A stretch of DNA of 56,039 bases. Origin: Candidatus Levyibacteriota bacterium (GTDB lineage Bacteria; Patescibacteriota; Microgenomatia; Levybacterales; UBA12049). How positions within the stretch are numbered: the first letter of the stretch is position 1; every line of letters starts with the position of its first letter. Location: positions 1 through 56,039 of the forward strand of contig PJMG01000003.1 in NCBI GenBank assembly GCA_003173895.1, read 5' to 3'. A program made the position numbers and the translations under genes. This document shows, piece after piece, positions 4,085 to 42,463 of this stretch. The notes under the pieces are model-generated. The model saw only the letters and a list, made by a program, of their open reading frames with translations. It searched no databases and was not told the DNA's origin.

Positions 4085-4102
4085 ATCCGCCAGCTGACGG
4101 AT
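4085..4102. repeat. family D GC palindrome (D1, one mismatch), in the rpsU leader
   Basis: atccgccagctgacggat. Confidence 0.8.
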
Positions 4103-4123
4103 ATTGAGAGGGGGTGTTTTTAT

Positions 4124-4324
4124 ATGGTTAAAGTTAAAAAAAATCCAGGAGAATCTGATGAAAGTTTAATTCGTAAATTTACCAGAAAAGTTATGCTGGA
4201 TGGTATTTTAATGGAAGCAAAAAGACGTAAATTTCATTTAAAACCATCCCTAGCTCGTAAGCAGCGTAAAAAAGATAAACAGCAAGCTCGAGCATTAATG
4301 GCTAAATTAATGAAAACTTCATGA
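4124..4324 (+). CDS. rpsU: 30S ribosomal protein S21
   Basis: MVKVKKNPGESDESLIRKFTRKV...; SD GAGAGGGGG upstream; the ORF-track start at 4082 runs through palindrome D1 and is unlikely. Confidence 0.85.
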   Translation: MVKVKKNPGESDESLIRKFTRKVMLDGILMEAKRRKFHLKPSLARKQRKKDKQQARALMAKLMKTS

Positions 4325-4710
4325 ACAACAAAGTAAAAACTTTAATTTTTGTTGAAAGTAGGTATAAAATTAACAGAAAGCGAATTAAAGCAACTGTTGA
4401 GAGAGTTTTAAAAACTCAAAATTTAACAGGAAATGTAGAAGTTTCTATAGCTTTCGTAGGTGATCGTAAAATGCGAGAGCTATCTCGCAAATATAAGAAT
4501 GAAGATAAAACTCGTAATATTTTATCTTTTTCATTTGCTGAGGGAGAAATGACTGTCATGCCACCTGATATTTTAAGACTAGGGGATATAGTAATTTCTT
4601 ATCCCTATCTTATTAAAGAAGCTGTTGAATTTGAAGAATTAGTGGATGATAGAATTGATATGTTAGTCGAACATGGTTTAATGCACTTACTAGGACTTCA
4701 CCACGAGTAG
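4321..4710 (+). CDS. ybeY: rRNA maturation endoribonuclease YbeY
   Basis: HGLMHLLGLHHE zinc-binding motif at the C-terminus; ATGA overlap with rpsU. Confidence 0.85.
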   Translation: MNNKVKTLIFVESRYKINRKRIKATVERVLKTQNLTGNVEVSIAFVGDRKMRELSRKYKNEDKTRNILSFSFAEGEMTVMPPDILRLGDIVISYPYLIKEAVEFEELVDDRIDMLVEHGLMHLLGLHHE

Positions 4711-4770
4711 AATTTAGAATCTAGAGTTCAGAATTAAGAATTCTGAATTATGAATTTTGAATTCTAAATT
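4711..4770. repeat. family E AT-rich palindromic element (E1)
   Basis: aatttagaat...attctaaatt outer pairing; inner ttcagaatt-aag-aattctgaa; first 32 nt are the exact reverse complement of 6326-6357. Confidence 0.8.
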
Positions 4771-4776
4771 CTTATT

Positions 4777-6258
4777 ATGGTTTTTTATAGAAAATATCGT
4801 CCACAAAAAATAGAAGATTTAGATAGTAAATCTCTTCAAGAAAGTTTATTTGCGATACTTTCTAAAAAAGAAATACCGCATGCTCTTTTATTCGCAGGAC
4901 CAAAAGGGCTTGGTAAGACTTCTACAGCTAGGATAGTAGCAAAGGTAGTTAATTGTACTAATCGCGGTAAAAATATAGAACCTTGTAATAAATGTGAACA
5001 GTGTATTTCTATCACTAATGGTTCTAATATAGATGTTTTGGAGATTGATGGAGCATCTAATCGGGGTATTGAAGAAATTCGTGATTTAAAAGAGAAAATT
5101 AGAGTTTTTCCGTCCTCTGCTTCTAAGAAAATTTATATTATCGATGAAGTGCACATGTTAACTACAGAAGCTTTTAACGCACTTTTAAAAATAGTAGAAG
5201 AACCACCTGAATATGTCATGTTTATTTTCGCGACTACAGAACTGGAAAAAGTTCCTGAAACGATTTTATCTCGCTGTTTTATAGTTAATTTTAAAAAAGC
5301 TACACAAAGTGAAGTAATACATTCACTTAAAAGAATTGTAGAAGGTGAAAAAATTAATATTACAGATGGAGCCCTAGAAGAAATTGCTAAATATTCAGAA
5401 GGTGGATTTAGAGATGGAGCTAAATATTTAGAAGAAGTTTCTACATTTGCTTCAGATAAAAAAATTGACATAGAGGATGTCAGAAAAATCTTAGGAACTA
5501 GTGGCATTGAACAAAGTTCTATAGAGTTTTTAGAAGCTCTAATAAAAAAAGATTTAAAAAAGAGTTTAGAAATTTTAAAAAATTTAGAAGAAAAAGGCAG
5601 CGATGCTAAATATTTCGCTTCAAATTTACTTCAGATTTTACAAGATTCTTTAATGGCTAAAAATGGTTTTGAGATGAAAAATAAAATTGATGAGAATTTA
5701 GAAGATATTTATTTAATGCTGGAAATATTTTCAGATGCTGCACTAAAAATTAAAAATGCTATTTATCCATTCTTACCAATTGAAATGGGAGCAGTTCATT
5801 ATTTTTTAATAAAAAATAATGATGAATTAGGAAGTAGGAATCAGGAAGTAGGAAACATAAAAAATAATAATAGTAATTCTAGAAAAACGATAGAAGATTT
5901 AGAGAAAATGGCGATGACTAAAAAGATTGTTGAATTCAGAATCCATCCGCCAGCTGGCGGATCAGAATTAAAGGATAAAAAAATTAATACTGAGGGAAAA
6001 ATCCAACAGGGTAATCTACATGATCAGAAAGATTTATTGGACAATTTAATTTATAAAGTAAAAGCTGATAATTTTTCTCTGGCTGGAGTTTTAAGAAGTT
6101 TTAAGAGTTATGAAATTCAAGCAGATCAAATAGTTTTAAAAACCAAGTATAAATTTCATAAACAAAAATTAGAAGAAGCCAAAAATTTAAGCGCTATTGC
6201 AAAAGCTTTAAAAGAAATAACTGGAAAAAATCTTAAAGTTCTGGTAAGCTTGGAATAA
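4777..6258 (+). CDS. dnaX: DNA polymerase III subunit gamma/tau
   Basis: Walker A GPKGLGKTS, zinc module CNKCEQC, DEVHML, SRC motif; contains D2 and a ggaagtaggaatcaggaagtagg repeat. Confidence 0.9.
   Translation: MVFYRKYRPQKIEDLDSKSLQESLFAILSKKEIPHALLFAGPKGLGKTSTARIVAKVVNCTNRGKNIEPCNKCEQCISITNGSNIDVLEIDGASNRGIEEIRDLKEKIRVFPSSASKKIYIIDEVHMLTTEAFNALLKIVEEPPEYVMFIFATTELEKVPETILSRCFIVNFKKATQSEVIHSLKRIVEGEKINITDGALEEIAKYSEGGFRDGAKYLEEVSTFASDKKIDIEDVRKILGTSGIEQSSIEFLEALIKKDLKKSLEILKNLEEKGSDAKYFASNLLQILQDSLMAKNGFEMKNKIDENLEDIYLMLEIFSDAALKIKNAIYPFLPIEMGAVHYFLIKNNDELGSRNQEVGNIKNNNSNSRKTIEDLEKMAMTKKIVEFRIHPPAGGSELKDKKINTEGKIQQGNLHDQKDLLDNLIYKVKADNFSLAGVLRSFKSYEIQADQIVLKTKYKFHKQKLEEAKNLSAIAKALKEITGKNLKVLVSLE
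5945..5962. repeat. family D GC palindrome (D2) in frame in dnaX
   Basis: atccgccagctggcggat, translated HPPAGGSE. Confidence 0.85.
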
Positions 6259-6259
6259 T

Positions 6260-6293
6260 AAGAATTTAGAATTCTGAATTTATAATTCAGAAT
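6260..6293. repeat. family E hairpin (E2a)
   Basis: attctgaatt-tat-aattcagaat perfect 10-bp stem immediately after the dnaX stop. Confidence 0.7.
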
Positions 6294-6325
6294 GTAAATA
6301 GGAATATTTATTTATAAAGATCCAT

Positions 6326-6357
6326 AATTCTTAATTCTGAACTCTAGATTCTAAATT
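6326..6357. repeat. family E repeat (E2b), inverted copy of 4711-4742
   Basis: aattcttaattctgaactctagattctaaatt is the reverse complement of aatttagaatctagagttcagaattaagaatt. Confidence 0.85.
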
Positions 6358-6380
6358 ATAGCGAAGGTAGGTGATATTTT

Positions 6381-6659
6381 ATGTTTAATCCATTAAAAGG
6401 CTTAGGTGATCTTAAAGCAATGCGAGATCAAGCTATGGCCATTCAAAAACAACTTCAAACTATAGTTCTAACTGTAGATAAAAAAGGTGTACAAGTTAGA
6501 ATTTCAGGTGATCAAAAGATTTTAGAAATAAGATCTAATGGTAAATCTGATGATGATATTAAAGAAGCCATTAATGAAGCTATTAAAAAATCTCAAGAGA
6601 CAGCAGCTAAAGAACTTTCACAAATGGGTGGAGGTTTAGGAGGATTGCTAGGAAGATAA
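6381..6659 (+). CDS. ybaB: YbaB/EbfC family nucleoid-associated protein
   Basis: 92 aa; position between dnaX and recR is typical; AAGGTAGGTGA SD. Confidence 0.8.
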   Translation: MFNPLKGLGDLKAMRDQAMAIQKQLQTIVLTVDKKGVQVRISGDQKILEIRSNGKSDDDIKEAINEAIKKSQETAAKELSQMGGGLGGLLGR

Positions 6660-6664
6660 AAATT

Positions 6665-6689
6665 TGTCATCCTGAACAGTGAAGGATCC
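6665..6689 (+). repeat. family C hairpin repeat (C1)
   Basis: tgtcatcctgaacagtgaaggatcc. Confidence 0.7.
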
Positions 6690-6708
6690 TTATTATTAGC
6701 TCTTAAGA

Positions 6709-6871
6709 GCAGTATGCTTTCACAATTTTTGGTGTCGCTCAGGGAAGTGATTGAAATTTTAAGAAAGTATTCGGACTTCGCTAGTGGAATTTTCTCACCA
6801 ATAGTAATCTAACCTTTGAATGCCTCTTTAGAGAAAATTCCAATTCACCAAAAATTGAAAAGACAAACTGC
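6709..6871 (+). repeat. family A' nested-hairpin element (A'1)
   Basis: Outer stem gcagtatgctttcacaatttttggtg / caccaaaaattgaaaagacaaactgc; inner ggaattttctc / gagaaaattcc; tcgctcagg and ttcgctagtgg boxes. Confidence 0.8.
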
Positions 6872-6897
6872 ATTTTTAATAAGTGTCAATATAATAA

Positions 6898-7257
6898 TTA
6901 CTCAGCTTTTTTCTTAGATCTTCTTTTAGTAGAAGTTGTAGTTTCTGTAAGAGTTTGAGTTACATCTGGATTAGATTTTGCTTCTAGAGTTACTTGATGT
7001 ACATTAGGACTATAAATTTGAGAATTAATGGGAATATCTCCGGCCGGATCAAAAACACGCTCTACGGTACTAATGGCTTCTTCGGTAGTACTTGCATTTA
7101 CATCAAATGTCACTACATGACCAAATCTAACTTTGGAGACCTCATTAAATCCTAACTGATGTAATCCATCTAATATTGTATTTCCTTCTGGGTCATTAGT
7201 TGTTGGGCTAACTAATATATAAGCATCAATCTCATGGATAGGATTTTCTTGGCCCAT
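6898..7257 (-). CDS. PurS-like protein (FGAM synthase PurS domain) with Lys-rich tail
   Basis: NDPEGNTILDGLHQLGFNEVSKVRFGHVV resembles the PurS DPQG...AL..LG...V..VR.GK signature. Confidence 0.5.
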   Translation of the reverse strand: MGQENPIHEIDAYILVSPTTNDPEGNTILDGLHQLGFNEVSKVRFGHVVTFDVNASTTEEAISTVERVFDPAGDIPINSQIYSPNVHQVTLEAKSNPDVTQTLTETTTSTKRRSKKKAE

Positions 7258-7319
7258 ATATTTACTATAAAAAAAGATTTAGCATTTTTCAAGAATAGGT
7301 GGTATATTTAAGTTTAGTA

Positions 7320-8234
7320 ATGAAGATTTTTTCTGGAAATTCTAATATCCCTCTAGCAGAAAAGATAAGTAAAAATCTTAAGTTAAAACTTTCTCCTGTA
7401 GATAAATTTGTTTTTCCCGATGGTGAGCAAAGAATCAGAATTACAGATCAGATAACTGGTCATAAAGTTATAGTGGTTCAAAGTGCAAATACTCCTGTAG
7501 ACCAAAATTACATGGAGCTTTTCTTTCTTCTGGATGCATTGAAGCGAAATGAAGCAGAGTTTGTGACGGCAGTGGTTCCATATTTTGGCTATCAAAGACA
7601 GGATCATGTTTTTAGAGATGGTGAGGCAGTGTCGTTAGAGGTAATTATAAGGATTTTAGAGAGTTTAAAAATTGATCGACTTATCAGTATAGATATGCAT
7701 TCTGTAAAAATCCCATATCTTTTTTCAGTGCCGGTTACTCACTTATCAGCAATGCCACTTTTTGCAAATAAAATAAAAGAAATTTTTAGGGGTTCTGTCG
7801 GAAAATCCAGTGTTTTAGTTTCTCCTGATATGGGTGGAATAGCCAGAATTATGAAGCTTTCAGAATTAACTAAATTGCCTTACGCCGCTTTGAAAAAGAA
7901 CAGGAATTTAAGTACTGGTAAAGTAACAGGAGACCAAGTAGCAGAGGGAAGTTTGGAAAACAAAAAAATAGCTTTTATCGTGGATGATATGATTTCTTCT
8001 GGAAGTACTATGGCACTAGCTGCGAATAATTTAGTTAAAAATGGAATTGAAAAAATTTATGTTTTTGCTACGCACGCTATTTTCTCTGAAGAAGCACCAG
8101 ATATCTTAGAAAATGCTCCAGTAGAAAAAGTTTATGTAACAGATAGTGTTTTTATCCCAAAAGAAAAAAGATTTTCTAAATTAGAAATTTTATCGATAGC
8201 ACCATTAATTGCTAAAACAATAAAAAAACATTAA
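7320..8234 (+). CDS. prs: ribose-phosphate pyrophosphokinase
   Basis: MKIFSGNSN..LA..I start, YFGYQRQD, IVDDMISSGST PRPP loop. Confidence 0.9.
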   Translation: MKIFSGNSNIPLAEKISKNLKLKLSPVDKFVFPDGEQRIRITDQITGHKVIVVQSANTPVDQNYMELFFLLDALKRNEAEFVTAVVPYFGYQRQDHVFRDGEAVSLEVIIRILESLKIDRLISIDMHSVKIPYLFSVPVTHLSAMPLFANKIKEIFRGSVGKSSVLVSPDMGGIARIMKLSELTKLPYAALKKNRNLSTGKVTGDQVAEGSLENKKIAFIVDDMISSGSTMALAANNLVKNGIEKIYVFATHAIFSEEAPDILENAPVEKVYVTDSVFIPKEKRFSKLEILSIAPLIAKTIKKH

Positions 8235-13064: not shown

Positions 13065-14561
13065 ATGAAATTAAAAATTTATAACACTAAATCCAGAACT
13101 GTGGAGGAATTTAAACCATTAAAAGATAAAGTAGTTAATCTTTATGCTTGTGGAATGACTGTTTATGATAATGCGCATATAGGTCATGCCAAAAAATATA
13201 TTGGGGATGATATTTTAATTCGTGTTTTAAAACATGCAGGTTATAACTTAAAACACGCCATGAATGTTACTGATGTGGGACATTTAACTTCAGATCAGGA
13301 TACAGGGATGGATAAAATGGAAAAAGGTGCACGAAAATATGGACTGTCAGTTTGGGATGTAGCTAAAAAATTTGAAGCACAATTTTGGGATAGTATGGAT
13401 GCAGTTGGAAATAATCGTCCTGATATTTTAATGCACGCAACTGATTTTATTAAAGAACAAATGAATCTGATAAAAATTTTAGAGAAAAAAGGCTATACTT
13501 ATACCATAGAAGATGGAGTCTATTTTGATACTTCTAAATTTCCACATTATTTTGATCTATCTCATCAAAATCCAGAAGAATTAAAAAAAGGCGCGAGAGT
13601 AGAATTCGTCGCAGGTAAAAAAAATGTGGCAGATTTTGCACTTTGGAAGTTTAGTTATCCAAAAGGAGTGAGTTTTGAAGAGTATAAGAAAGAGATTACT
13701 TCGTATTCACTCACAAAGACGGAAATTACTAAAAGGCAAATGGAATGGGAGAGTCCATGGGGTTTAGGTTTTCCTGGTTGGCATATAGAATGTAGCGCAA
13801 TGAGCTTAAAGGCGCTAACTAATTTTGACCCTTCGACTCCGCTCAGGGTCGATGGTAACTATACCATCGATATTCACACAGGTGGTATAGATCATATTAA
13901 TGTTCATCATACTAATGAAATCGCTCAAAGCGAAGCTGCAACGGGTAAAGAATTTGTTCGATATTGGGTACACCATAATTTCCTGATGGTAAATGATGAA
14001 AAAATGAGTAAAAGTTTAGGTAATATTTTCACAGTACAAGATGTAATGGAAAAAGGATTTAAGCCAATGGTTCTTCGTTATTTATTTCTAACTGGACATT
14101 ATCGATCGGAAATGAATTTTACTTGGGAAAGTTTGGAAGCAGCACAAAAAGCATATGATAGATTATTGATGGAAGTTTATAATTTAAAAGGGCATGTTGG
14201 TTCTATTAATAAAGAATTTTTATCTTCTTTTGAAGGAGCACTTTATGATGACTTAAATACTGCCAAAGCAATCGCTATTATTTGGGAATTAATAAAATCC
14301 AATATTGATCCTTCGGAAAAACTCTCTACATTAAAAATCATGGATGAAGTTTTAGGACTAAAATTGTTTGGAAGGGTAAAGGGTCAAGGGGAAAGCGAAA
14401 AGCAAGAAATACCAAAGGAAATTGAACAGTTAAAAATAAAAAGAGAGGAATTTAGAAAAAATAAAGAGTTTAAAAAAGCGGATGAAATAAGAAAAGAGAT
14501 TGAAAATAGAGGATATGAAGTAATAGATACTAAATCAGATACAGTAATAAAGAAAAAATAA
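13065..14561 (+). CDS. cysS: cysteine--tRNA ligase
   Basis: HIGHA and KMSKS motifs, GWHIECSAM; two in-frame repeat insertions. Confidence 0.95.
   Translation: MKLKIYNTKSRTVEEFKPLKDKVVNLYACGMTVYDNAHIGHAKKYIGDDILIRVLKHAGYNLKHAMNVTDVGHLTSDQDTGMDKMEKGARKYGLSVWDVAKKFEAQFWDSMDAVGNNRPDILMHATDFIKEQMNLIKILEKKGYTYTIEDGVYFDTSKFPHYFDLSHQNPEELKKGARVEFVAGKKNVADFALWKFSYPKGVSFEEYKKEITSYSLTKTEITKRQMEWESPWGLGFPGWHIECSAMSLKALTNFDPSTPLRVDGNYTIDIHTGGIDHINVHHTNEIAQSEAATGKEFVRYWVHHNFLMVNDEKMSKSLGNIFTVQDVMEKGFKPMVLRYLFLTGHYRSEMNFTWESLEAAQKAYDRLLMEVYNLKGHVGSINKEFLSSFEGALYDDLNTAKAIAIIWELIKSNIDPSEKLSTLKIMDEVLGLKLFGRVKGQGESEKQEIPKEIEQLKIKREEFRKNKEFKKADEIRKEIENRGYEVIDTKSDTVIKKK
13828..13852 (-). repeat. family C repeat (reverse orientation) in frame in cysS
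   Basis: gacccttcgactccgctcagggtcg, translated DPSTPLRVD, between GWHIECSAM and DIHTGGIDH. Confidence 0.7.
14372..14391 (+). repeat. family F G-rich 20-mer (F2) in frame in cysS
   Basis: aagggtaaagggtcaagggg translated RVKGQG. Confidence 0.7.
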
Positions 14562-15068: not shown

Positions 15069-15234
15069 AGAGTATACTTTTCGCAATTTTTCGACACGCT
15101 CGCGTACTTTGTTTGTGGAGATAGATAATATTCAAACTCGCTAATGGAATTTTCTCACCAAGGTTTGTTATAGATTTTATAATTTAATATTAAGAGAAAA
15201 TTTCAAATGTCTCAAAATTGAAAAAGCATACTCT
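15069..15234 (+). repeat. family A' nested-hairpin element (A'2)
   Basis: agagtatacttttcgcaatttttcgaca / tgtctcaaaattgaaaaagcatactct; inner ggaattttctc / gagaaaatttc; more than 90% identical to A'3 outside a variable spacer. Confidence 0.85.
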
Positions 15235-16625: not shown

Positions 16626-17240
16626 ATGGATAAAATTAAAAGTTGGTTTAAAAAATTAAAAAGAATGAAGCTTAGTAAAATGCATTTAGACTATATTGCT
16701 GGGCTTTTAACCATTCCTGTTCTTTTGACTGCTATTTTAATCAACTTTACTAATTTAGATAAAAATAAAACTGTTACTCCTCCGCCAGTTGGCGGACCTA
16801 CCAGCTCACCTAACTCTAAGGTAATCGTAATAACACAACCAGTAAATAATACTCAGCCTACACCTGATGCTCAAACTTGTACTAAAAGCATAGGTCCTAT
16901 ATCGATTACATATCCTACTGAAGGTCAGAATGTTTCTGATAATCCACTTTGTATAAATATTGATTATTCCAATAATAATTATTGTTCTGTGGTTTGGTCA
17001 TATAGAATAAATAATGGTTCTTGGTCAGCGTATAATAGTGATGAGCCATGTTTATATAATTTACCCTCAGGTTCTGTCCAATTCCAACTACGTGTTCAAA
17101 GTACAGTTTCTAACAGCAGTGAAACATTAACCCGTAATTTTACTTATTCTGGAACTAATAACGGTCCAACACCCACGCCAACTCCCAGTAATACTTCTAC
17201 TCCTACGCAAGCTGTGGCTTCTTCATCGGCTGGAATATAA
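16626..17240 (+). CDS. hypothetical secreted/membrane-anchored protein
   Basis: 204-aa ORF, GGGAGGA SD, N-terminal TM, PT-rich C-terminus. Confidence 0.5.
   Translation: MDKIKSWFKKLKRMKLSKMHLDYIAGLLTIPVLLTAILINFTNLDKNKTVTPPPVGGPTSSPNSKVIVITQPVNNTQPTPDAQTCTKSIGPISITYPTEGQNVSDNPLCINIDYSNNNYCSVVWSYRINNGSWSAYNSDEPCLYNLPSGSVQFQLRVQSTVSNSSETLTRNFTYSGTNNGPTPTPTPSNTSTPTQAVASSSAGI
16791..16806. repeat. family D palindrome variant (D3) in frame
   Basis: tccgccagttggcgga translated PPVGG. Confidence 0.7.
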
Positions 17241-24962: not shown

Positions 24963-26096
24963 ATGTCATCTGTTTCATGTGGTATTGTAGGACTTCCCAA
25001 CGTTGGGAAAAGTACTTTATTTAATGCTTTATTAAAAAAACAGCAGGCTTTAGCTGCGAATTATCCATTTGCGACGATAGAACCCAATGTCGGAATAGTG
25101 CCAGTGCCGGATGAGAGATTATTGGCGTTGGCCAATATTGTCGCAGGACGAGATCCTTCGACTCCTCCGCCAGCTGGCGGATTCGCTCAGGATGACAAAG
25201 TGTTACCTCCTATTAAAAACGCGATGGTGGAATTCGTAGATATCGCAGGGTTAGTGAAAGGCGCTAGTCAAGGAGCAGGTTTAGGAAATAAATTTTTATC
25301 ACACATTAGAGAAGTCAGTGTAATTTGTCATGTGGTGCGTGCATTTACTGATGAAAATATTATTCGCGAAGGAAGTCAGGATCCAGAAAATGATTTCGCT
25401 ACCATTCAAACAGAATTGATTTTAGCTGATCTTCAATCTATTCAGAATCAGGAAGTAAGAATTAAAAATCCAGAGCAACTAAAATTGTTAAATCGTATAA
25501 AGGCAGATCTTAATAATGGAATTCCAGTGAGAAATATGAATTTTACTGACGAAGAAGCGGAGTTAGTAAAAAATTTATTTTTATTAACTGCTAAGGAAGA
25601 AATGATAGTTTTAAATGTAAATGAGGATGAATATTCGCCTATGAATGATGAAATACTAATTAAAAAATACGCTGATTTACTGGAAATTGATAGAAATAAA
25701 ATAGTAGTAATTTGCGCTAAAATCGAATCAGAACTTTCAGAATTAACTGAAGATGAACAAAAAGCTTATTTAGCAGACCTCGGATTTGAAACATCAGGAC
25801 TTGAAAGACTTATTCGAAAAGCATACTCGACTTTAGGTTTAATTAGTTTCTTAACCTGTGGTGAGAAAGAAGTTAAAGCTTGGACTATAGAACGTGGTAC
25901 TACAGCTCAGTATGCGGCAGGTGAAATTCATACAGATTTTATTAAGAAATTTATTAAAGCAGAAGTAGTTTCATATGATGAATTTGTTAAAAATAATGGA
26001 TGGAAGGGAAGTCGCGAGGCTGGGAAAGCCAGATTAGAAGGAAAAGATTATATAGTTTCTGATGGGGACGTTATTGAGTTTAAGATTGGGGCATAA
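24963..26096 (+). CDS. ychF: redox-regulated ATPase YchF
   Basis: GIVGLPNVGKSTLFNAL, DIAGLVKGAS, C-terminal TGS/YchF domain; nested repeat insertion. Confidence 0.95.
   Translation: MSSVSCGIVGLPNVGKSTLFNALLKKQQALAANYPFATIEPNVGIVPVPDERLLALANIVAGRDPSTPPPAGGFAQDDKVLPPIKNAMVEFVDIAGLVKGASQGAGLGNKFLSHIREVSVICHVVRAFTDENIIREGSQDPENDFATIQTELILADLQSIQNQEVRIKNPEQLKLLNRIKADLNNGIPVRNMNFTDEEAELVKNLFLLTAKEEMIVLNVNEDEYSPMNDEILIKKYADLLEIDRNKIVVICAKIESELSELTEDEQKAYLADLGFETSGLERLIRKAYSTLGLISFLTCGEKEVKAWTIERGTTAQYAAGEIHTDFIKKFIKAEVVSYDEFVKNNGWKGSREAGKARLEGKDYIVSDGDVIEFKIGA
25146..25197 (-). repeat. family C repeat with family D palindrome (25166-25181) nested in its loop, in frame in ychF
   Basis: ggacgagatccttcgactcc-tccgccagctggcgga-ttcgctcaggatgacaa; translated GRDPSTPPPAGGFAQDDK. 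Confidence 0.85.
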
Positions 26097-31380: not shown

Positions 31381-32379
31381 ATGGATATTAAAGAAAATAT
31401 AATTTTAGCTCCATACACGACTTTTCATATTGGTGGTCCTGCGGATTATTTTTTAATAGCTAAAAATACGCAGGAATTAATGGATGGAATTAAATGGGCG
31501 GAAGAAAAGAATATTTTATTTTTTATTTTAGGAAGCGGGGCAAATATTTTAGTGGGGGATAAAGGATTTAGAGGATTGGTGATCAAAAATGAGAGTTCAC
31601 AGGTCACAGTTAAAAGTTCACAGGAAGTGTCATTACTTACTGCGGATTCGGGAATTACTATTGCTGAGTTAATTACAATAACCACAGAAAAAGGACTTTC
31701 AGGTTTGGAGCATTTTGCTGGAATTCCATCTACTTTAGGTGGAGCAATTTGGCAGAATTTACACTTTTTATCCGCTGATCGATCGGAAACTGTTTTTATC
31801 GGAGATATTTTAGAAACAGCTATCATAATTCCAAATGTTACGTCTTTGCGAGGAACAGAAAGTGACGAAGCAATCTCAAAAGGATTGCCACTCGAACAAA
31901 GTTCGCTCGCAATGACGAGGACGGTAAATAAAGATTATTTTAAATTTGCTTATGATTACAGTATTTTACACGACACTCATGATATCGTTTTATCTGCTAC
32001 TTTAAAATTAAAACCAGAATCTCGTGAAGTTATTAAATCTACTATTAATGCTAATTTAAAATGGAGAGCTGAAAAACATCCAGAAAATGCCGTGAATTGT
32101 TCAGCGGGATCAATCTTTAAGAAAATTCCTGCCCGCCTCGCAAGCGAGAGCGTTGCGGGCAGGGAAGGCGGCGCTGGACGTTTTATTCAACAAGTCGGAT
32201 TAAAAGGACATAAAATAGGTGGTGCTCAAATATCAGAAAAACATGCTAATTTTATTATTAACGCAGGAAATGCGAAGGCTTCTGAAGTTTTATCTTTAAT
32301 AAATTTAGTTAAGGAAAAAGTTAAAAAGGAGCTTGGATTAGATATGGAAACTGAAATAAGTTTGGTTGGAGAGTTCTAG
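31381..32379 (+). CDS. murB: UDP-N-acetylenolpyruvoylglucosamine reductase
   Basis: FHIGGPADYF, GSGANIL, AGSIFKK...GLKG..IGGAQISEKHANFIIN; two in-frame repeat insertions. Confidence 0.9.
   Translation: MDIKENIILAPYTTFHIGGPADYFLIAKNTQELMDGIKWAEEKNILFFILGSGANILVGDKGFRGLVIKNESSQVTVKSSQEVSLLTADSGITIAELITITTEKGLSGLEHFAGIPSTLGGAIWQNLHFLSADRSETVFIGDILETAIIIPNVTSLRGTESDEAISKGLPLEQSSLAMTRTVNKDYFKFAYDYSILHDTHDIVLSATLKLKPESREVIKSTINANLKWRAEKHPENAVNCSAGSIFKKIPARLASESVAGREGGAGRFIQQVGLKGHKIGGAQISEKHANFIINAGNAKASEVLSLINLVKEKVKKELGLDMETEISLVGEF
31841..31919. repeat. family G palindromic MITE (both GIY-YIG-element ends, no cargo) in frame in murB
   Basis: cgtctttgcgagg..gaagcaatc-tcaaaag-gattgcc..ctcgcaatgacg; translated TSLRGTESDEAISKGLPLEQSSLAMTR. 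Confidence 0.75.
32128..32163. repeat. family H GC-rich hairpin (H3) in frame in murB
   Basis: cctgcccgc-ctcgcaagcgag-agcgtt-gcgggcagg; translated PARLASESVAGR. Confidence 0.75.
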
Positions 32380-32380
32380 A

Positions 32381-33394
32381 ATGAAAAATAGATTTACAGA
32401 AATTGATGATCTTCGTGGTTTAGCTATTTTCTTCATGATTTTGGTTCATACTTCAGTTTATTTTCTGACTGATTCGTTTATGAAATTTTTATGGAATTTC
32501 TCTGAATGGTCAGTAGCAGGATTTATCTTTTGCTCGAGTTTTGTCTACTTTATAAATAGTAAAAATAATTTTTGGAATGAGAAAAAAATTGATTTTAAAC
32601 TATATTGGCAGTATTTATTAAAACGCTTAAAACGTTTAATTATTCCGTATTATATTTTTCTGTTAGTTTTTATATCATTACTTTTATTAACTCACAATAA
32701 ACTGCTTAACACAAAATACATAATTTTTTCTACATTTTTAGTGGGTGGGGTAGATATAAGTTGGTTAGTTTTACTTTTTCTTATTTTTGCTCTTATGTTT
32801 CCTCTTATAAAATATCTCTTTGAAAATTATAAAAAAATATTTTATTTAGGATTTTTTCTTTCGTTTCTTTCTCTTATTTATTTCTTATTTATTCATAATT
32901 TAAATTTTAATTATCGTTTTATTTTTTGGTTACCATGGAGTTTTATAGTTTTTTATACGGTTTTATTTACTGATTACTCTTTGAGAGAAAAAAGTAAATT
33001 GAGTAATAAGTATTTTTATCTTTTTTCAATATTATTTTTTGTCTTTTCATTTTTATTTTCATTTATTTATCTTCAGCAAAATTATTTAAATTTAGATCAA
33101 ATTAGTAATAAATATCCACCTAATCTTTATCATATTTCATTTGGACTATTAGGAGTTTTAGGGTTTTATTTATTATCTAAAATTGGAATATTTAATCCGC
33201 CAGCTGGCGGACTTAGAAAGTTTTTAAATTTTTTAAGTTTGAATTCTTATTCAATTTATTTTATTCACTATACGATTTTATATTTTACAGCCAGTTGGTT
33301 TGTAAAGAATAGTAATTGGTTTTTATTTACGATTTTTGTTTTTATAACTAGTTTAATTTCGCAAAAAACTTTTAATTTGATTTTAAAAAAATAA
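32381..33394 (+). CDS. acyltransferase family 3 membrane protein
   Basis: MKNRFTEIDDLRGLAIFFMILVH start typical of acyltransferase_3; multi-TM. Confidence 0.7.
   Translation: MKNRFTEIDDLRGLAIFFMILVHTSVYFLTDSFMKFLWNFSEWSVAGFIFCSSFVYFINSKNNFWNEKKIDFKLYWQYLLKRLKRLIIPYYIFLLVFISLLLLTHNKLLNTKYIIFSTFLVGGVDISWLVLLFLIFALMFPLIKYLFENYKKIFYLGFFLSFLSLIYFLFIHNLNFNYRFIFWLPWSFIVFYTVLFTDYSLREKSKLSNKYFYLFSILFFVFSFLFSFIYLQQNYLNLDQISNKYPPNLYHISFGLLGVLGFYLLSKIGIFNPPAGGLRKFLNFLSLNSYSIYFIHYTILYFTASWFVKNSNWFLFTIFVFITSLISQKTFNLILKK
33196..33211. repeat. family D GC palindrome (D5) in frame
   Basis: tccgccagctggcgga translated NPPAGGL. Confidence 0.85.
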
Positions 33395-36558: not shown

Positions 36559-36725
36559 AAGCTCATTGAAAGTACTTTTTAAACAGGCGTTCGCTAACTT
36601 TGTTTATAATTAAAATTATATTTCATCTCTCACTCGTGAAAGTTTGCTATTAGTTTAACATTGAAACATAAAATATTAAACAGCAAACTTCCAATGCTCT
36701 TTAAAGAGTACTATTCAATTCACTT
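36559..36725 (+). repeat. family A nested-hairpin element (A2)
   Basis: aagctcattgaaagtacttttt...ctcactcgtgaaagtttgct...agcaaacttcc aatgctc...; starts 2 nt after the trhO stop. Confidence 0.8.
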
Positions 36726-38797: not shown

Positions 38798-38817
38798 AGC
38801 TTGGTTTTAATATGCAT

Positions 38818-38981
38818 AAGCTCGCAGAATGTATTTTAAAAGCCGCTCGGAAACATGAATCTTAAATTAATATTAAATTGTCATTCTCGCTCGTGAAAGT
38901 TTACTACCAAAGTCAAAAAGAAATTTAAGAATATTAAACAGTAAACTTTCAATGCTGTTTAAAATACATATCTGCTCGCTC
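38818..38981 (+). repeat. family A nested-hairpin element (A3)
   Basis: Outer gcagaatgtattttaaaagc / gctgtttaaaatacatatctgc; inner tgaaagtttact / agtaaactttca; compensatory versus A1. Confidence 0.8.
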
Positions 38982-39040: not shown

Positions 39041-40306
39041 ATGTTAATTAAAAATTACTCCTCACTTAATACATCCCCTCAAAGAAAATTGGCTTTAGAT
39101 TTGATTGAAACTGCACTGGAATCAATTCAACCACGGAAAGTTTTAAAAAATAAAATAAAATTAGAAAATAATACTATAGAAATTGATAATAAAAAATATA
39201 ATTTATCTGATTTTGAACATATTTACATCGTGGGTTTTGGAAAGGGATCGTCAGGCGTTTGTAAATATTTAGAAAACTTGCTTGGTAATAAATTAACCAA
39301 AGGTTGGGATATAGATTTAGTTGATGAAAAATTTGAGAGTATTGAATATATTAAGGGAACACATCCATTACCTTCGCAAACTAATATCGATTATACGAAA
39401 AATGTAATTAAGAGTTTATCAGAATTGGGGGAAAATGATTTGGTTTTAGTAGTGATTTGTGGAGGAGGATCGGCGATGTTTGAAAGTCCTGTTTTACCTC
39501 TGGAAAAACTCGATGAATTGGGTCGAGAAATGTTACGCTCAGGTGCTGATATTAAGGAATTAAATATAGTTCGTAAACATTTATCATTAGTTAAAGGTGG
39601 AGGATTAGCTAAACTTTTAGATCCAGCCAAAATTGTTTCACTTATATTTTCAGATGTGCCTGGAAATGATTTCTCTACTATTGCTTCCGGCCCGACTACT
39701 ATTGATCCATATAATAAAAATGACGCCATTGAAATTCTTAAAAAATATAATATTACTTTAATAAATGAAGAGGATTTAATTGATTTACCAAAAGCTAAGG
39801 AATATTTTGAAAGAGTTGATAATATTTTAATTGTCAGCAATCTTACAGCTTTAAATGCAATGATGGAAAAGATTAAGAGTGAAAGATTAAGAGCTAAAAT
39901 TTTAAGTTATAAATTTACAGGAGATGCGAAAGTTGTTGGTAAAAAATTAATTGAAGAATGTAAAGATAATGAAATTCTACTCGCGGCAGGAGAAACTACA
40001 GTGGATGTAAAAGGAAAAGGAACTGGTGGAAGAAATCAAACTTTAGTTTTAGCTAGTTTTCCATTTCTGGATTCTAAAACTTTAATTTGTTCTTTTGGAA
40101 CTGATGGATGGGATTTTTATGGATATGCGGGAGCTATAGGTGATGAAGAAACGATGGAAAAAGCTAAAAAAGCTTCGCTTGATTTTCAAAAATATTTAGA
40201 CGATGATAATAGTTATGAGTTTTTTAAACTCATAGGGGATGGAATTGATACAGGGAAATTAGAATCAAATGTGTCGGACATAATGATGGTAATAAAAGGT
40301 AACTAA
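39041..40306 (+). CDS. glycerate 2-kinase (DUF4147/MOFRL family)
   Basis: GFGKGS, CGGGSAMFE, LSLVKGGGLA, GTDGWD motifs. Confidence 0.8.
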   Translation: MLIKNYSSLNTSPQRKLALDLIETALESIQPRKVLKNKIKLENNTIEIDNKKYNLSDFEHIYIVGFGKGSSGVCKYLENLLGNKLTKGWDIDLVDEKFESIEYIKGTHPLPSQTNIDYTKNVIKSLSELGENDLVLVVICGGGSAMFESPVLPLEKLDELGREMLRSGADIKELNIVRKHLSLVKGGGLAKLLDPAKIVSLIFSDVPGNDFSTIASGPTTIDPYNKNDAIEILKKYNITLINEEDLIDLPKAKEYFERVDNILIVSNLTALNAMMEKIKSERLRAKILSYKFTGDAKVVGKKLIEECKDNEILLAAGETTVDVKGKGTGGRNQTLVLASFPFLDSKTLICSFGTDGWDFYGYAGAIGDEETMEKAKKASLDFQKYLDDDNSYEFFKLIGDGIDTGKLESNVSDIMMVIKGN

Positions 40307-40337
40307 GCTCATTGAAAGTACTTTTCAACTCGCTTAA
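40305..40337 (+). repeat. collapsed (solo) family A element
   Basis: aagctcattgaaagtacttttcaactcgcttaa equals the A1 5' end fused to the A1 3' end across aagtactt. Confidence 0.7.
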
Positions 40338-40375
40338 TTTATCTAAAAATTTAAAATTTGTTATTTAAAATTATT

Positions 40376-41275
40376 ATGGATACTTTAACACCGGAAAAAG
40401 TTTTAGACTTAAAATTAAAAGCTAATAGAATTAGAGAGTTAATTATAAATATGTTAGTTAAAGCAGGTAGTGGTCACAGTGGGGGGCCGCTCGGAATGAC
40501 TGATATTTTTACTGCGATGTATTTTCATATTTTGAATCATGATCCTAAAAATCCACTTATGCCGGATCGTGATCGACTAGTTTTATCCAATGGACATATT
40601 TGTCCAGTCCAATATGCGACATTGGCGCTTGCTGGATATTTCCCGTTAGAAGAATTAGATACTCTGCGAAAAATTAATTCTAGACTTCAGGGTCATCCTC
40701 ATCGAGGAACGCTCCCAGGATTAGAAACTACTTCTGGACCCCTAGGTGAAGGATTATCTCAAGGGATTGGTATGGCCTTAGCTGGAAAAATGGATAAGAA
40801 AGATTATCATGTTTATGTTTTAACTTCAGATGGTGAACATCAGGAAGGAAATACTTGGGAAGCGATGATGATGGCAGCGAAATATAAATTAGATAATTTA
40901 ACTGTAGTAATAGATCGAAATAGAATTCAAATAGATGGTGATACAGAAAAAGTTATGCCATTAGATCCATTTAGCGATAAATATAAAGCATTTAATTTCG
41001 AGGTTTTTGAAATTCCAGGCAATGACATTCAACTTTTTATAGAAACAGTAGAAAATGCTAAACAGGTTAAAAATAGTCCTACTGTTATTATTGCTGATAC
41101 TATTCCTGGTAAAGGTGTAAGTTATATGGAAAATAATTATATTTGGCACGGAATTCCACCTGATTTGCAGGATGTACCAGGTGCACCTAAAAAAGGTGAA
41201 CAAGCTAAGGTAGCGTTAGAAGAATTAGGAAAAATTGAAGAAAGTTTAAAAAGGGAAGGAGGCATATCTAATTAA
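40376..41275 (+). CDS. transketolase, N-terminal subunit
   Basis: GHSGGPLGMTDI, SNGH, GPLGEG, LTSDGE ThDP-binding motifs. Confidence 0.9.
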   Translation: MDTLTPEKVLDLKLKANRIRELIINMLVKAGSGHSGGPLGMTDIFTAMYFHILNHDPKNPLMPDRDRLVLSNGHICPVQYATLALAGYFPLEELDTLRKINSRLQGHPHRGTLPGLETTSGPLGEGLSQGIGMALAGKMDKKDYHVYVLTSDGEHQEGNTWEAMMMAAKYKLDNLTVVIDRNRIQIDGDTEKVMPLDPFSDKYKAFNFEVFEIPGNDIQLFIETVENAKQVKNSPTVIIADTIPGKGVSYMENNYIWHGIPPDLQDVPGAPKKGEQAKVALEELGKIEESLKREGGISN

Positions 41276-41288
41276 TGAGTAATGCTTG

Positions 41289-41427
41289 AGAGTTAGCTTT
41301 TCACAATTTTTCGACACGCTCGCTCCAAGATCGCTAATGGAATTTTCTCACCAAAGTTTGTTACTGATTTTATAACTTAATATTAAGAGAAAATTTCAAA
41401 TGTCTTAAAATTGAAAAAACTAACTCT
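41289..41427 (+). repeat. family A' nested-hairpin element (A'3) between the tkt halves
   Basis: agagttagcttttcacaatttttcgaca / tgtcttaaaattgaaaaaactaactct; inner ggaattttctc / gagaaaatttc. Confidence 0.85.
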
Positions 41428-41461
41428 TTAAATACTTGATGTTTTAATTAAAAATTAATAT

Positions 41462-42463
41462 ATGTTAAATCCTAAATATAAATTAAATCCTAAAATTTTT
41501 GACACTGATGTGGAAATAAATCCTACGAGGGCGGGGTTTGGTGAGGGATTATTAGAATTAGGAGATAAAAATCCTAATATCGTCGGATTAACTGCGGATC
41601 TTTCAGAATCTACTAAAGCGGATAAATTTGAAAAAAAATATCCTGATAGATTTTTTGATGTAGGGGTAGCAGAGCAGGATATGGCAGCAGTAGCAGCTGG
41701 TCTAGCAGTTTCTGGTAAAATTCCTTTTATCTCATCTTATGCTACATTTAGCCCAGGGAAAAATTGGGAAACGATCAGAACTACCATTATTTATAATAAA
41801 GCGAATGTAAAAATAGCAGGACATCATTCAGGAGTCATGACTGGACCTGATGGATGTACTCATCAAGCCACAGAGGATATTGCCTCAGTTCGTTCTTGGC
41901 CGGGACTAAATATCATAGTTCCTTGCGATAGTATCGAAGCTAAAAAAGCCACGATAATTGCCGGTGATACTGAAGGGCCATTCTATTTAAGATTTAGTCG
42001 TGACAAATCTGCTGTTATGACTACCGATGAAACGCCATTTGAATTCGGGAAAATGGCGAATTTTTGGATTCCTGATTCGCCAGCTGGCGAACCTCAAGTT
42101 ACTATTTTTGCTATGGGTTACATGCTTTATTATGCACTTTTAGCTGCGAAAGAATTAGAAACTGAGGGAATTCAAACTTTGGTGGTAAATGCTCCTACCA
42201 TAAAGCCATTTGACACTGAAGGTTTGCTGGAATTCACCAAAATTTCTAGAGCTGTGGTGACAGTGGAGGATCACCAAGTTATGGGAGGATTAGGGGGAGT
42301 GATTGCGGAATATTTATCTAAAAGTACGCCTTTACCTATGGAGATGGTAGCGCTTCAAGATACTTTCGCAGAATCTGGTAAACCAAAAGAATTATTGGCT
42401 AAATATCACATGGATGTTCCAGATATTAAAGAAGCAGTGAAAAAAATTATTGGGAGAAAATAG
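41462..42463 (+). CDS. transketolase, C-terminal subunit
   Basis: FDVGVAEQDM, pyrimidine-binding and C-terminal domains. Confidence 0.9.
   Translation: MLNPKYKLNPKIFDTDVEINPTRAGFGEGLLELGDKNPNIVGLTADLSESTKADKFEKKYPDRFFDVGVAEQDMAAVAAGLAVSGKIPFISSYATFSPGKNWETIRTTIIYNKANVKIAGHHSGVMTGPDGCTHQATEDIASVRSWPGLNIIVPCDSIEAKKATIIAGDTEGPFYLRFSRDKSAVMTTDETPFEFGKMANFWIPDSPAGEPQVTIFAMGYMLYYALLAAKELETEGIQTLVVNAPTIKPFDTEGLLEFTKISRAVVTVEDHQVMGGLGGVIAEYLSKSTPLPMEMVALQDTFAESGKPKELLAKYHMDVPDIKEAVKKIIGRK
42076..42091. repeat. family D palindrome variant (D6) in frame in tktC
   Basis: ttcgccagctggcgaa translated DSPAGEP. Confidence 0.75.

What the first reader, a model, noticed from the sequence alone, without database searches (positions are those of the whole stretch)
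4085..42091. 16-nt GC palindrome TCCGCCAGCTGGCGGA: every coding copy is read in the same P-A-G-G frame
Six copies of a perfect or near-perfect GC palindrome occur in about 56 kb of ~30% GC DNA: 4085, 5945, 16791, 25166, 33196 and 42076. The five coding copies are all read as CCG/CCA/GCT(GTT)/GGC/GG(A), giving PPAGG, PPVGG, PPAGG, PPAGG and SPAGE. A palindrome reads the same on both strands, so only the frame can vary, and one of three frames is used 5 out of 5 times. The other two frames (A-S-W-R and R-Q-L-A) are never seen in CDS. The sixth copy lies in the rpsU leader. A 16-nt insert alone would shift the frame, so the real insertion unit must be a multiple of 3, for example 18 nt with a 2-nt duplication. 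D1 and D2 extend to ATCCGCC..GGCGGAT. The core contains CAGCTG.
Basis: seen in the sequence. Interest (0 to 1): 0.7.

Follow-up and report, generated by a model that had tools for sequence, protein, structure and literature searches.

The report
Tiny palindrome inserts tied to nuclease
The six GC-rich 16-base palindromes are copies of a very small insertion element that adds four harmless codons (Pro-Pro-Ala-Gly) to protein loops in many ultra-small bacteria, and in other genomes its reference copies sit right next to a small GIY-YIG nuclease gene lodged at tRNA genes, which points to a repeat-plus-nuclease system that I did not find described.

Summary
Six copies of TCCGCCAGCTGGCGGA ("P", at most 2 mismatches) lie in 56 kb of about 31% GC DNA, against 0.03 expected. 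All five coding copies are read T|CCG|CCA|GCT|GGC|GGA.

The bias generalises. In other low-GC genomes, mostly Patescibacteria, 24 of 29 confidently coding copies use the same frame (p = 6e-8).

P is an insertion. In CysS and in the transketolase C subunit it adds exactly 4 codons (+12 nt) to a loop. There is no target duplication. It was gained repeatedly in non-sister lineages and is absent from the nearest relatives. So the net change is a multiple of 3, but not the proposed 18 nt with a 2-nt duplication.

Variants stay perfect palindromes: TTCGCCAGCTGGCGAA (the window's transketolase copy), TTCTTCAGCTGAAGAA and TCCGCTGGCCAGCGGA.

The main new result concerns small stand-alone Slx1-like GIY-YIG nuclease genes at tRNA genes. 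In homologues chosen only by protein similarity, P-family copies lie within 150 nt of the gene in 32 of 80 loci, a 75-fold enrichment. They sit inside a duplicated tRNA fragment.

Best reading: a REP/RAYT-like system, with a palindrome and a cognate nuclease, whose copies survive in genes only where and in the frame they are tolerated. The nuclease's role in spreading P is inferred, not shown, and no such gene lies in this window.

The parts
4086..4101 (.). P copy with 1 mismatch (TCCGCCAGCTGACGGA) in the rpsU 5' leader. It ends 22 nt before the ATG and lies just upstream of the GAGGGGG ribosome-binding site.
   Evidence: The mismatch weakens the hairpin (-5.4 kcal/mol).
5946..5961 (.). Perfect P copy in dnaX (4777-6258), read as PPAGG at residues 391-395. 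It lies in the linker after domain III and inside a heptamer-repeat tract.
   Evidence: Hairpin -11.9 kcal/mol, z -2.7.
16781..16796 (.). P copy with 1 mismatch (TCCGCCAGTTGGCGGA) in ORF 16626-17240, read as PPVGG. It lies in the Pro/Thr-rich stretch after an N-terminal hydrophobic segment.
   Evidence: no Pfam family.
25166..25181 (.). Perfect P copy in ychF (24963-26096), read as PPAGG. It forms the apex of an older GC-rich insert.
25152..25196 (+). Older hairpin-type insert GATCCTTCGACTCC[P]TTCGCTCAGGATGAC ('DPST..AQDD') in a variable YchF loop. Orthologs carry the same outer arms with other apex sequences. The basal 364-aa YchF has no insert.
33196..33211 (.). Perfect P copy in an acyltransferase_3 membrane protein gene (32366-33394), read as PPAGG between hydrophobic segments.
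   Evidence: Hairpin -12.4 kcal/mol, z -3.5.
42076..42091 (.). Symmetric variant P2 (TTCGCCAGCTGGCGAA) in the transketolase C-terminal subunit gene (41462-42463), read as SPAGE. It lies in the linker between the Transket_pyr and Transketolase_C domains and adds 4 residues compared with the nearest ortholog.

Best explanation
The six sites are copies of a miniature, perfectly palindromic insertion element. There are two forms: P = TCCGCCAGCTGGCGGA and its symmetric sub-family P2 = TTCGCCAGCTGGCGAA. The element is scattered through Patescibacteria genomes and occurs in some Bacteroidota, other low-GC bacteria and phage contigs.

Shown:
- Each coding copy is a gain relative to orthologs. The 16-mer takes the place of about 4 nt, giving +12 nt = 4 codons (x-[PPAG]-G), with no target duplication.
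- Gains recur at the same permissive loops in non-sister lineages, are missing from the closest relatives, and some copies carry mismatches or AT-richer sequences.
- Variants remain perfect palindromes.
- Copies also sit at hairpin tips of RNA genes and of other repeats.
- P-family copies are physically coupled to small stand-alone Slx1-like GIY-YIG nuclease genes that sit at tRNA genes. There, P lies inside a duplicated tRNA fragment beside the nuclease ORF.

Inferred:
- The GIY-YIG protein recognises the palindrome, as a hairpin, a cruciform or a dyad site, and drives its copying into short loop-like targets. This is the logic of REP elements and their RAYT transposase, with a different enzyme.
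- The one-frame rule is mostly a survivor effect. Every insertion of this kind keeps the reading frame. Of the three possible peptides only Pro-Pro-Ala-Gly-Gly is small and flexible enough for linkers and turns; Ser-Ala-Ser-Trp-Arg and Arg-Gln-Leu-Ala are removed. A preference for landing just before a Gly codon may add to the bias.
For: Enrichment and sharp family bounds.

Frame use: all five coding copies in the window share one frame. Other low-GC genomes give PPAGG 24, other frames 5 (p = 6e-8). P2 gives 14 of 21 in the SPAGE frame. Phage contigs give 6 of 7. High-GC genomes show no bias (3/4/3), as expected for chance hits.

Insertion: Saccharibacteria CysS has a 4-residue loop in more than 110 cluster representatives. 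Perfect P sits at one codon position in three lineages whose nearest neighbours lack it. A fourth lineage has TCCGCTGGCCAGCGGA in the same place and frame. All are +4 aa. In the transketolase C subunit, L264 has perfect P, the window has P2 and L266 has TTCTTCAGCTGAAGAA (three compensatory pairs). All are +4 aa compared with empty L265. The carriers are not monophyletic, and relatives 89-92% identical to the L266 protein include two that show no insert. In YchF, P sits inside an older insert and is absent in all 119 other homologs.

Patchy density: there are no P-like copies in about 200 kb around ychF in 12 other low-GC, mostly CPR-labelled genomes.

Palindromy favoured: among the first 120 hits of each scan, low-GC versus high-GC loci number 72:27 for P, 41:56 for the symmetric double variant, and only 15:82 for the asymmetric single variant.

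Tolerated hairpin tips: the P3 and P12 hairpins of an RNase P RNA are exactly P.

Nuclease link: all three GIY-YIG ORFs in P-selected loci lie 22-121 nt from P (Pfam PF01541). In 80 metagenome loci chosen only by GIY-YIG protein similarity, 39 P-family copies lie within 150 nt of the gene ends (22.6 kb, 32 loci) against 6 in the remaining 261 kb, a 75-fold difference. More distant homologs are flanked by other perfect palindromes. The genes abut tRNA-Asn, Lys or Met genes. P replaces 3 nt of the D-loop in a locus-specific copy of the tRNA 5' part, or 10 nt of the anticodon arm in a tRNA-Met 3' remnant. The catalytic Tyr, Tyr, Arg, His and Glu are invariant in the 3-sequence alignment.
Against: - No GIY-YIG gene, or any mobile-element gene, lies in the 56-kb window. 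The rest of this genome could not be retrieved.
- The nuclease-palindrome link is an association. P could simply ride in the cassette.
- Co-variation between protein similarity and palindrome type is weak (median identity 0.45 vs 0.42, p = 0.013).
- No pair of near-identical filled and empty alleles was available, so the exact junctions and the '16 in, 4 out' rule rest on orthologs 73-92% identical.
- The replaced length is not constant (3 nt in the D-loop, 10 nt in tRNA-Met remnants, net +9 nt in YchF against a non-ancestral comparator).
- Recurrent gain at one codon could mean target specificity rather than selection. A simple T|GGA target model predicts only about 57% in-frame use.
- Selection against the other two frames is inferred, not measured.
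Confidence: 0.6

Rival explanations
1. P is a functional DNA or RNA signal kept by selection in each genome. It could be a binding site for a dimeric protein (parS- or Noc-site-like chromosome organisation, or an operator), a DNA-uptake sequence for these naturally competent bacteria, or a regulatory mRNA hairpin. Under this reading it is placed in the cheapest reading frame.
For: P is a 16-bp perfect dyad. The same sequence occurs across distant lineages. Palindromy is preserved through compensatory pairs. Spacing of 8-11 kb between five of the window copies. One copy lies in a 5' leader at a distance from the start codon similar to that seen upstream of GIY-YIG ORFs. Uptake sequences in Pasteurellaceae and Neisseria also show frame preferences (my own knowledge).
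Against: P is not conserved at orthologous positions: it is absent from all other YchF homologs and from the nearest CysS and transketolase relatives. Density ranges from 1 per 9 kb here to none in about 200 kb of related genomes. Some copies carry mismatches or AT-richer sequences, which may be decay. P arrives as an insertion rather than by point mutations. No canonical parS is present, but no ParB-type gene was seen in the window either. [quoted passage not shown]
Confidence: 0.12
2. P spreads by a host repair or replication process, such as template switching at hairpins or templated patch insertion at breaks, or by some other unseen enzyme. Under this reading the GIY-YIG cassette merely carries one inherited copy, because the dead tRNA fragment next to it is a neutral hairpin target.
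For: P is found at the tips of unrelated hairpins: RNase P P3 and P12, the apex of the older YchF insert, and tRNA-remnant loops. Some empty target sites are themselves quasi-palindromes, for example TCGCCAGAAGGCGA in L207 and CCTGCAGG in L205. Protein-palindrome co-variation is weak. Short templated inverted insertions at breaks are documented in yeast (PMC11724301, listed).
Against: Local template switching would produce locus-specific palindromes, not the same 16-mer in many phyla. The 75-fold concentration of P-family copies at GIY-YIG gene ends holds in three different tRNA contexts and on either side of the ORF. It also comes with family-specific perfect palindromes in distant homologs. 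This is hard to explain by passive inheritance.
Confidence: 0.22
3. The copies are chance or compositional matches, or assembly or adapter artefacts.
For: In high-GC genomes the exact 16-mer does occur at about chance level, mostly in the RQLAE frame.
Against: The window has 6 copies against 0.03 expected. The copies sit in frame inside continuous conserved genes and replace a loop. The same pattern appears in assemblies from many unrelated projects and sources.
Confidence: 0.01

Closest known systems
REP / REPIN elements with their RAYT (IS200/IS605-like HUH tyrosine transposase)
   Same: A short GC-rich palindromic repeat is dispersed in tens of copies. Reference copies flank a single small nuclease gene. 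Different nuclease lineages go with different palindromes. The repeat alone encodes nothing.
   Different: [quoted passage not shown] The unit is a 16-nt perfect palindrome without the REP 5' GTAG-type tetranucleotide. Copies are common inside protein-coding genes in one frame, whereas REPs are by name extragenic. The nuclease gene is lodged at tRNA genes together with a duplicated tRNA fragment.
Rickettsia palindromic elements (RPE; 'selfish DNA in protein-coding genes', from my own knowledge)
   Same: Palindromic repeats are inserted in frame into conserved genes of a small AT-rich genome. They are translated as extra surface segments, are tolerated at permissive sites, and show patchy presence among orthologs.
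   Different: RPEs are about 100-150 nt and lineage-restricted, with no known partner enzyme. P is 16 nt (+12 nt net), identical across phyla, and linked to a nuclease gene.
Free-standing GIY-YIG homing endonuclease genes (T4 seg/mob type, I-TevI relatives)
   Same: A small selfish GIY-YIG ORF is inserted beside a highly conserved target (tRNA genes). There is partial duplication of the target, and a sequence interrupts the duplicated site.
   Different: The protein is the minimal Slx1-like domain with no DNA-binding extension. The best PDB matches are UPF0213 proteins 1ZG2 and 1YWL, with only weak matches to I-TevI. Homing endonucleases are not known to seed dozens of short palindromes elsewhere in the genome.
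HIP1 (GCGATCGC) and small dispersed repeats of cyanobacteria
   Same: A short palindrome is hugely over-represented, occurs inside genes, and has an unknown mechanism.
   Different: HIP1 is 8 nt, is conserved at orthologous sites by selection, and is enriched in all three reading frames (PMC5861425). P is 16 nt, is not positionally conserved, arrives as an insertion and uses one frame.
GC clusters of yeast mitochondrial DNA (from my own knowledge)
   Same: GC-rich palindromic mini-elements sit in very AT-rich DNA. Some are in frame within a protein gene (var1).
   Different: That system is organellar. The elements are 30-50 nt with AT target duplications, and no linked nuclease gene has been shown.

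Membership tests
REP/RAYT (REPtron) system | Dispersed short palindromic repeats, with copies flanking a dedicated nuclease/transposase gene | tested here: met
   P-family copies are 75-fold concentrated within 150 nt of GIY-YIG gene ends. Several loci have a copy on both sides (L062, L522, L529, L530, L534, L541, L553).
REP/RAYT (REPtron) system | The partner enzyme is an HUH Y1 (IS200/IS605-like) transposase | tested here: not met
   The partner is a GIY-YIG catalytic domain (PF01541). The closest structures are UPF0213 and Slx1-like. P is therefore not a member of this family, only analogous to it.
REP/RAYT (REPtron) system | Repeats are extragenic | tested here: not met
   Five of six window copies, and 32 confidently coding copies (3 of them in the window) among about 95 low-GC copies scored, lie inside ORFs.
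MITE (miniature inverted-repeat transposable element) | Terminal inverted repeats flanked by a target-site duplication of fixed length | tested here: not met
   There is no flanking direct repeat above chance. The six cases with a 26-nt period lie in heptamer tandem tracts. The net gain is +12 nt for a 16-nt unit.
Rickettsia-type intragenic palindromic element (RPE-like) | In-frame insertion into conserved genes relative to orthologs, at variable loops | tested here: met
   CysS, transketolase and YchF alignments. Domain boundaries from Pfam.
Rickettsia-type intragenic palindromic element (RPE-like) | Sequence homology to RPE families, length about 100-150 nt | tested here: not met
   The unit is 16 nt. 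Conservation does not extend beyond it.
Selected iterated palindrome (HIP1-like) or protein binding site (parS/NBS-like) | Conservation at orthologous positions between related genomes | tested here: not met
   P is absent in the nearest YchF, CysS and transketolase relatives. Carriers are not monophyletic.
DNA uptake sequence (DUS/USS-like) | High, roughly uniform density across the genomes of a lineage, and preferential uptake of DNA carrying it | tested here: inconclusive
   Density varies from 1 per 9 kb to none in about 200 kb of related genomes, which argues against it. Uptake itself is not testable here.
Free-standing GIY-YIG homing endonuclease cassette | A GIY-YIG ORF inserted next to a conserved host gene, with the target site interrupted in the carrier allele | tested here: met
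   ORFs abut tRNA-Asn, Lys or Met genes. A duplicated tRNA fragment is interrupted by P. This applies to the cassettes in other genomes, not to the window.
Free-standing GIY-YIG homing endonuclease cassette | Site-specific cleavage of cassette-free alleles and homing | not testable with these tools
   This needs biochemistry or genetic crosses.

The most novel reading that the evidence does not exclude
A previously undescribed class of mobile system. A minimal Slx1-like GIY-YIG nuclease parks at tRNA genes. It recognises its own 16-nt perfect palindrome as a hairpin or cruciform. It copies that palindrome into short loop-like DNA targets by replacing a few nucleotides, not by cut-and-paste with a target duplication. 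In this way it seeds identical four-codon Pro-Pro-Ala-Gly inserts in proteins and hairpin tips in RNA genes across Patescibacteria and beyond.
Probability: 0.35. Interest if true: 0.85.

Novelty: new variant of a known kind. Interest (0 to 1): 0.78.

Why it matters
If the link holds, there are four consequences.

1. It gives stand-alone bacterial Slx1-like GIY-YIG proteins (UPF0213) a concrete biological context. This widespread family has solved structures but no assigned role.
2. It adds a second enzyme class to the repeat-plus-domesticated-nuclease theme so far known from REP/RAYT.
3. It explains a source of recurrent, identical four-residue inserts in essential proteins of Patescibacteria. 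Such inserts can confound alignments, phylogenies and structure models of these organisms.
4. It offers a testable example of how selection filters selfish DNA by reading frame.

The 16-mer is also a simple marker for tracking horizontal exchange among episymbiotic bacteria, their neighbours and phages.

Tried and rejected
- **Target-site duplication.** Immediate flanks match no better than shifted controls. The six cases with 7-10 matching bases at a 26-nt period lie in heptamer tandem tracts, and removing 26 nt would break the frame.
- **Longer hairpin element around P.** Flank complementarity equals that of random positions. Only 3 independent loci of 117 copies show the ATCC..GGAT outer arms.
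- **parS-like site.** The window has no canonical parS and no ParB gene, and P positions are not conserved.
- **Known RNA families or tRNAs in the window.** None were found.
- **Source genome.** The window's YchF is not on record elsewhere. The closest relatives are Levybacteria MAGs at 62-67%. Genome-wide counts for this organism were therefore impossible.
- **Literature.** There were no hits for the sequence itself, or for palindromic in-frame inserts in Patescibacteria. There were none for GIY-YIG with palindromic repeats and tRNA genes, or for UPF0213 names.
- **Transposase between pairs of P copies.** None was recognised by eye in the ORF translations; no Pfam scan was run on them.
- **P-linked GIY-YIG genes in phage contigs.** Only distant N-terminal matches were found.
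- **Frame bias from a T|GGA target alone.** This predicts about 57% in-frame use, which is too little.
- **Protein-palindrome co-variation.** It is only weakly significant.
Full report
**1. The observation**

A search for TCCGCCAGCTGGCGGA (called P here) with up to 3 mismatches finds six sites. They start at 4086, 5946, 16781, 25166, 33196 and 42076. Dinucleotide shuffles give 0.03 expected.
- Three copies are perfect and two have one mismatch.
- The copy at 42076 has two mismatches that mirror each other (TTCGCCAGCTGGCGAA), so it is still a perfect palindrome.
- There are no copies at 3 or 4 mismatches.
16791 is a slip for 16781.
- All five coding copies are read T|CCG|CCA|GCT|GGC|GGA. The host genes are dnaX, an unassigned ORF, ychF, an acyltransferase_3 gene and the transketolase C subunit gene.
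- The sixth copy ends 22 nt upstream of the rpsU start codon.
- Perfect copies fold as a 6-7 bp stem with an AGCU loop at about -12 kcal/mol.

The window is about 31% GC and 85% coding. It holds only housekeeping genes of a Patescibacteria genome. The closest YchF relatives are Levybacteria MAGs at 62-67% identity. The window has no transposase, RAYT, restriction enzyme, DNA methyltransferase or GIY-YIG gene. It has no Rfam hit, no tRNA and no canonical parS.

**2. The same 16-mer elsewhere**

About 30 of the 80 rows shown are Patescibacteria of many classes. Others are Bacteroidota, Elusimicrobia and Cloacimonadota.

I scored each copy by the longest open frame spanning it. I required at least 150 aa and at least twice the runner-up.
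- Low-GC loci give 27 copies in the PPAGG frame, 3 in RQLA and 2 in SASWR.
- Without the three perfect window copies this is 24 of 29, p = 6e-8.
- High-GC genomes give 3/4/3, as expected for chance matches.
- Phage contigs show the same pattern, with 6 of 7 low-GC coding copies in the PPAGG frame.

**3. P is an insertion**

*CysS of Saccharibacteria.* More than 110 of 120 cluster representatives have a four-residue loop between WK[FL]S and KRDMEW. Three lineages have eight residues, x-x-PPAG-G-x, with perfect P at the same codon (L009, L203, L204). A fourth lineage (L206) has the different perfect palindrome TCCGCTGGCCAGCGGA in the same place and frame. Each carrier's nearest neighbours lack the insert. 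The nearest empty genes show that one codon plus the preceding base gives way to the 16-mer. The net gain is +12 nt.

*Transketolase C subunit.* The picture is the same:

| Locus | Sequence at the site | State |
|---|---|---|
| L265 | GAA AAT CCT | empty |
| L264 | AAT CCG CCA GCT GGC GGA CCA | perfect P |
| window | GAT TCG CCA GCT GGC GAA CCT | P2 |
| L266 | GAT TCT TCA GCT GAA GAA CCT | TTCTTCAGCTGAAGAA |

The L266 sequence is again a perfect palindrome, reached from P by three compensatory pairs. All three filled forms are +4 residues. The carriers do not form a clade, and among relatives 89-92% identical to the L266 protein, the two whose loop was displayed have no insert. One further lineage has PPAGG two residues upstream. 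This argues for a permissive loop rather than one exact nucleotide target.

*YchF.* P forms the apex of an older GC-rich insert, GATCCTTCGACTCC[P]TTCGCTCAGGATGAC. Two orthologs carry the same outer arms with other apex sequences. The 364-aa basal form has no insert. No other of 119 homologs has PPAGG.

*Flanks and density.* Flanks show no target duplication and no hairpin extension beyond chance. About 200 kb around ychF in 12 other low-GC, mostly CPR-labelled genomes holds no P-like copy. Density is therefore lineage-specific.

The proposed 18 nt with a 2-nt duplication does not.

**4. Palindromy is preserved**

The symmetric double variant P2 is itself widespread in Patescibacteria. It is read as SPAGE in 14 of 21 confident low-GC coding copies.

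I compared the make-up of the first 120 hits of each scan:

| Pattern | Low-GC loci | High-GC loci |
|---|---|---|
| P | 72 | 27 |
| P2 (symmetric double variant) | 41 | 56 |
| Asymmetric single variant, both orientations | 15 | 82 |

After a rough correction for base composition, the double variant is about as common in low-GC genomes as both single variants together. That is far more than independent mutation would give. This is my own rough calculation from the counts.

Either only perfect palindromes propagate, or the two arms are kept matched in place.

**5. Where copies sit**

The window copies lie in linkers or variable loops:
- between the two transketolase domains,
- after DnaX domain III,
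- in a YchF loop that hosts at least six different GC-rich insert types in CPR genomes,
- between hydrophobic segments of the acyltransferase,
- in a Pro/Thr-rich stretch of ORF 16626-17240.

Outside proteins, P forms both the P3 and P12 hairpins of a Cyclobacteriaceae RNase P RNA. It also sits at the apex of other hairpin repeats.

**6. The partner gene**

In the P-selected loci, all three small GIY-YIG ORFs lie 22-121 nt from P (Pfam PF01541). One of them, in L062, has P on both sides.

As an unbiased test I fetched 80 metagenome loci chosen only by similarity to these proteins.
- 39 P-family copies (at most 2 mismatches) lie within 150 nt of the gene ends, in 22.6 kb and 32 loci.
- Only 6 lie in the remaining 261 kb. 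The enrichment is 75-fold.
- Among the closest homologs, P lies 4-30 nt upstream of the start codon.
- More distant homologs are flanked by other perfect palindromes: TCCGTCAGCTGACGGA, TCCGCTGGCCAGCGGA, TCCGCCGCGGCGGA, TCCGGCAGCTGCCGGA and TCCCGATAGCTATCGGGA.

Nearly all these genes abut a tRNA gene on the same strand. There are two arrangements.
- In the tRNA-Asn and tRNA-Lys type, the ORF ends inside the tRNA. Upstream lies a copy of that locus's own tRNA 5' part in which P replaces three D-loop bases: GTAGCTC[P]GGTAGAGC versus GTAGCTCAAYGGTAGAGC.
- In the tRNA-Met type, the ORF follows the intact tRNA. It is followed by a tRNA 3' remnant in which P replaces ACCCAAAGGT.

The proteins are the minimal Slx1-like form of the GIY-YIG domain. 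The best solved relatives are the UPF0213 proteins 1ZG2 and 1YWL. A survey of the superfamily describes these as bacterial Slx1-family members without auxiliary domains and of unknown role (PMC1564403). The catalytic residues are invariant in the alignment of the three seed proteins. No close relative is present in the phage contig collection.

**7. Interpretation**

The best-supported reading is a repeat-plus-nuclease system built like REP/RAYT but with a GIY-YIG enzyme.
- The nuclease cassettes sit at tRNA genes and carry the reference palindrome.
- Solo palindromes are seeded elsewhere by replacement of a few nucleotides.
- Copies in genes persist only in loops, and almost only in the frame that encodes Pro-Pro-Ala-Gly-Gly.

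Three steps are inferred rather than shown:
- that the nuclease recognises P,
- that the nuclease spreads P,
- that the frame rule is due to selection rather than to how P is inserted. A simple target model predicts only about 57% in-frame use.

The window itself contains no nuclease gene, and its genome could not be recovered.

The rivals are a selected binding or uptake site, passive hitch-hiking of P in the cassette with spread by host repair, and chance or artefact. They are weighed in the structured fields.

**8. Novelty**

I found no paper describing the sequence, the in-frame inserts in Patescibacteria, or a link between GIY-YIG genes and palindromic repeats at tRNA genes. The searched library is incomplete.

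The phenomenon belongs to known kinds: intragenic palindromic elements such as RPE, and repeat-nuclease pairs such as REP/RAYT. It differs from them in unit size, mode of insertion, enzyme class and host range.

Noticed in passing
window 13829-13848 (cysS) and 25152-25196 (ychF): A second GC-rich insert type, CCTTCGACTCC..GCTCAGG, is read as DPSTPLRV in CysS and as DPST..AQDD in YchF. The same YchF loop carries at least six different GC-rich insert families in other CPR genomes.
   Followed up: partly
window 32126-32182 (murB, 31381-32379): A 57-nt GC-rich hairpin segment, CCTGCCCGC...GCGGGCAGG, is translated as IPARLASESVAGREGGAGRF. It is probably another kind of in-frame insert.
   Followed up: no
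window 1846-1883, 2178-2242, 42481-42545, 47837-47874: Four copies of an intergenic repeat, GGGGTCCTG(Y)CG..TTTCCCTCCC..GTGCTCGCAATGGG. No Rfam family matches it.
   Followed up: no
window 6778-6869, 15133-15234, 41326-41427; and 414-513, 36608-36705, 38865-38964: Two further families of about 90-100-nt intergenic repeats lie upstream of genes (77-90% identical). Their function is unknown.
   Followed up: no
window 2851-2884, 4709-4766, 6261-6353 (and around 5930-5975): Tandem heptamer tracts (AGAATTC-like) flank dnaX. The P copy at 5946 sits inside such a tract. Similar heptamer tracts flank P in L083, L034 and L104 and mimic a 10-nt target duplication.
   Followed up: partly
L016, L018, L019, L033, L038, L095, L098, L135, L136 and others: A second cross-genome perfect palindrome, CCTGCCTGCCGGCAGGCAGG, is mostly noncoding. 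It is sometimes within 30-50 nt of P.
   Followed up: partly
L073 4274-4680 (minus strand): In the RNase P RNA of a Cyclobacteriaceae MAG, both the P3 and the P12 hairpins are exactly the 16-nt palindrome.
   Followed up: yes
L062 2090-2560; L509-L525 gene ends: The GIY-YIG ORFs upstream of tRNA-Asn or tRNA-Lys run into the tRNA, and the stop codon TAG is part of the tRNA D-stem. RNase P processing of a co-transcript would therefore remove the stop codon. This may limit nuclease expression.
   Followed up: partly
L018 4015-4225: A tRNA 5' fragment is followed by the CCTGCC..GGCAGG palindrome, a complete tRNA-Met, and then a matching tRNA 3' half. It looks like a tRNA gene split by an insert.
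   Followed up: no
L055 6930-7160 (Mucilaginibacter): Two P copies bracket a 96-nt segment that has its own inverted ends. The whole is nested in a GTCATTGCGAGGAACGA hairpin repeat. It is a MITE-like composite with P as its termini.
   Followed up: partly
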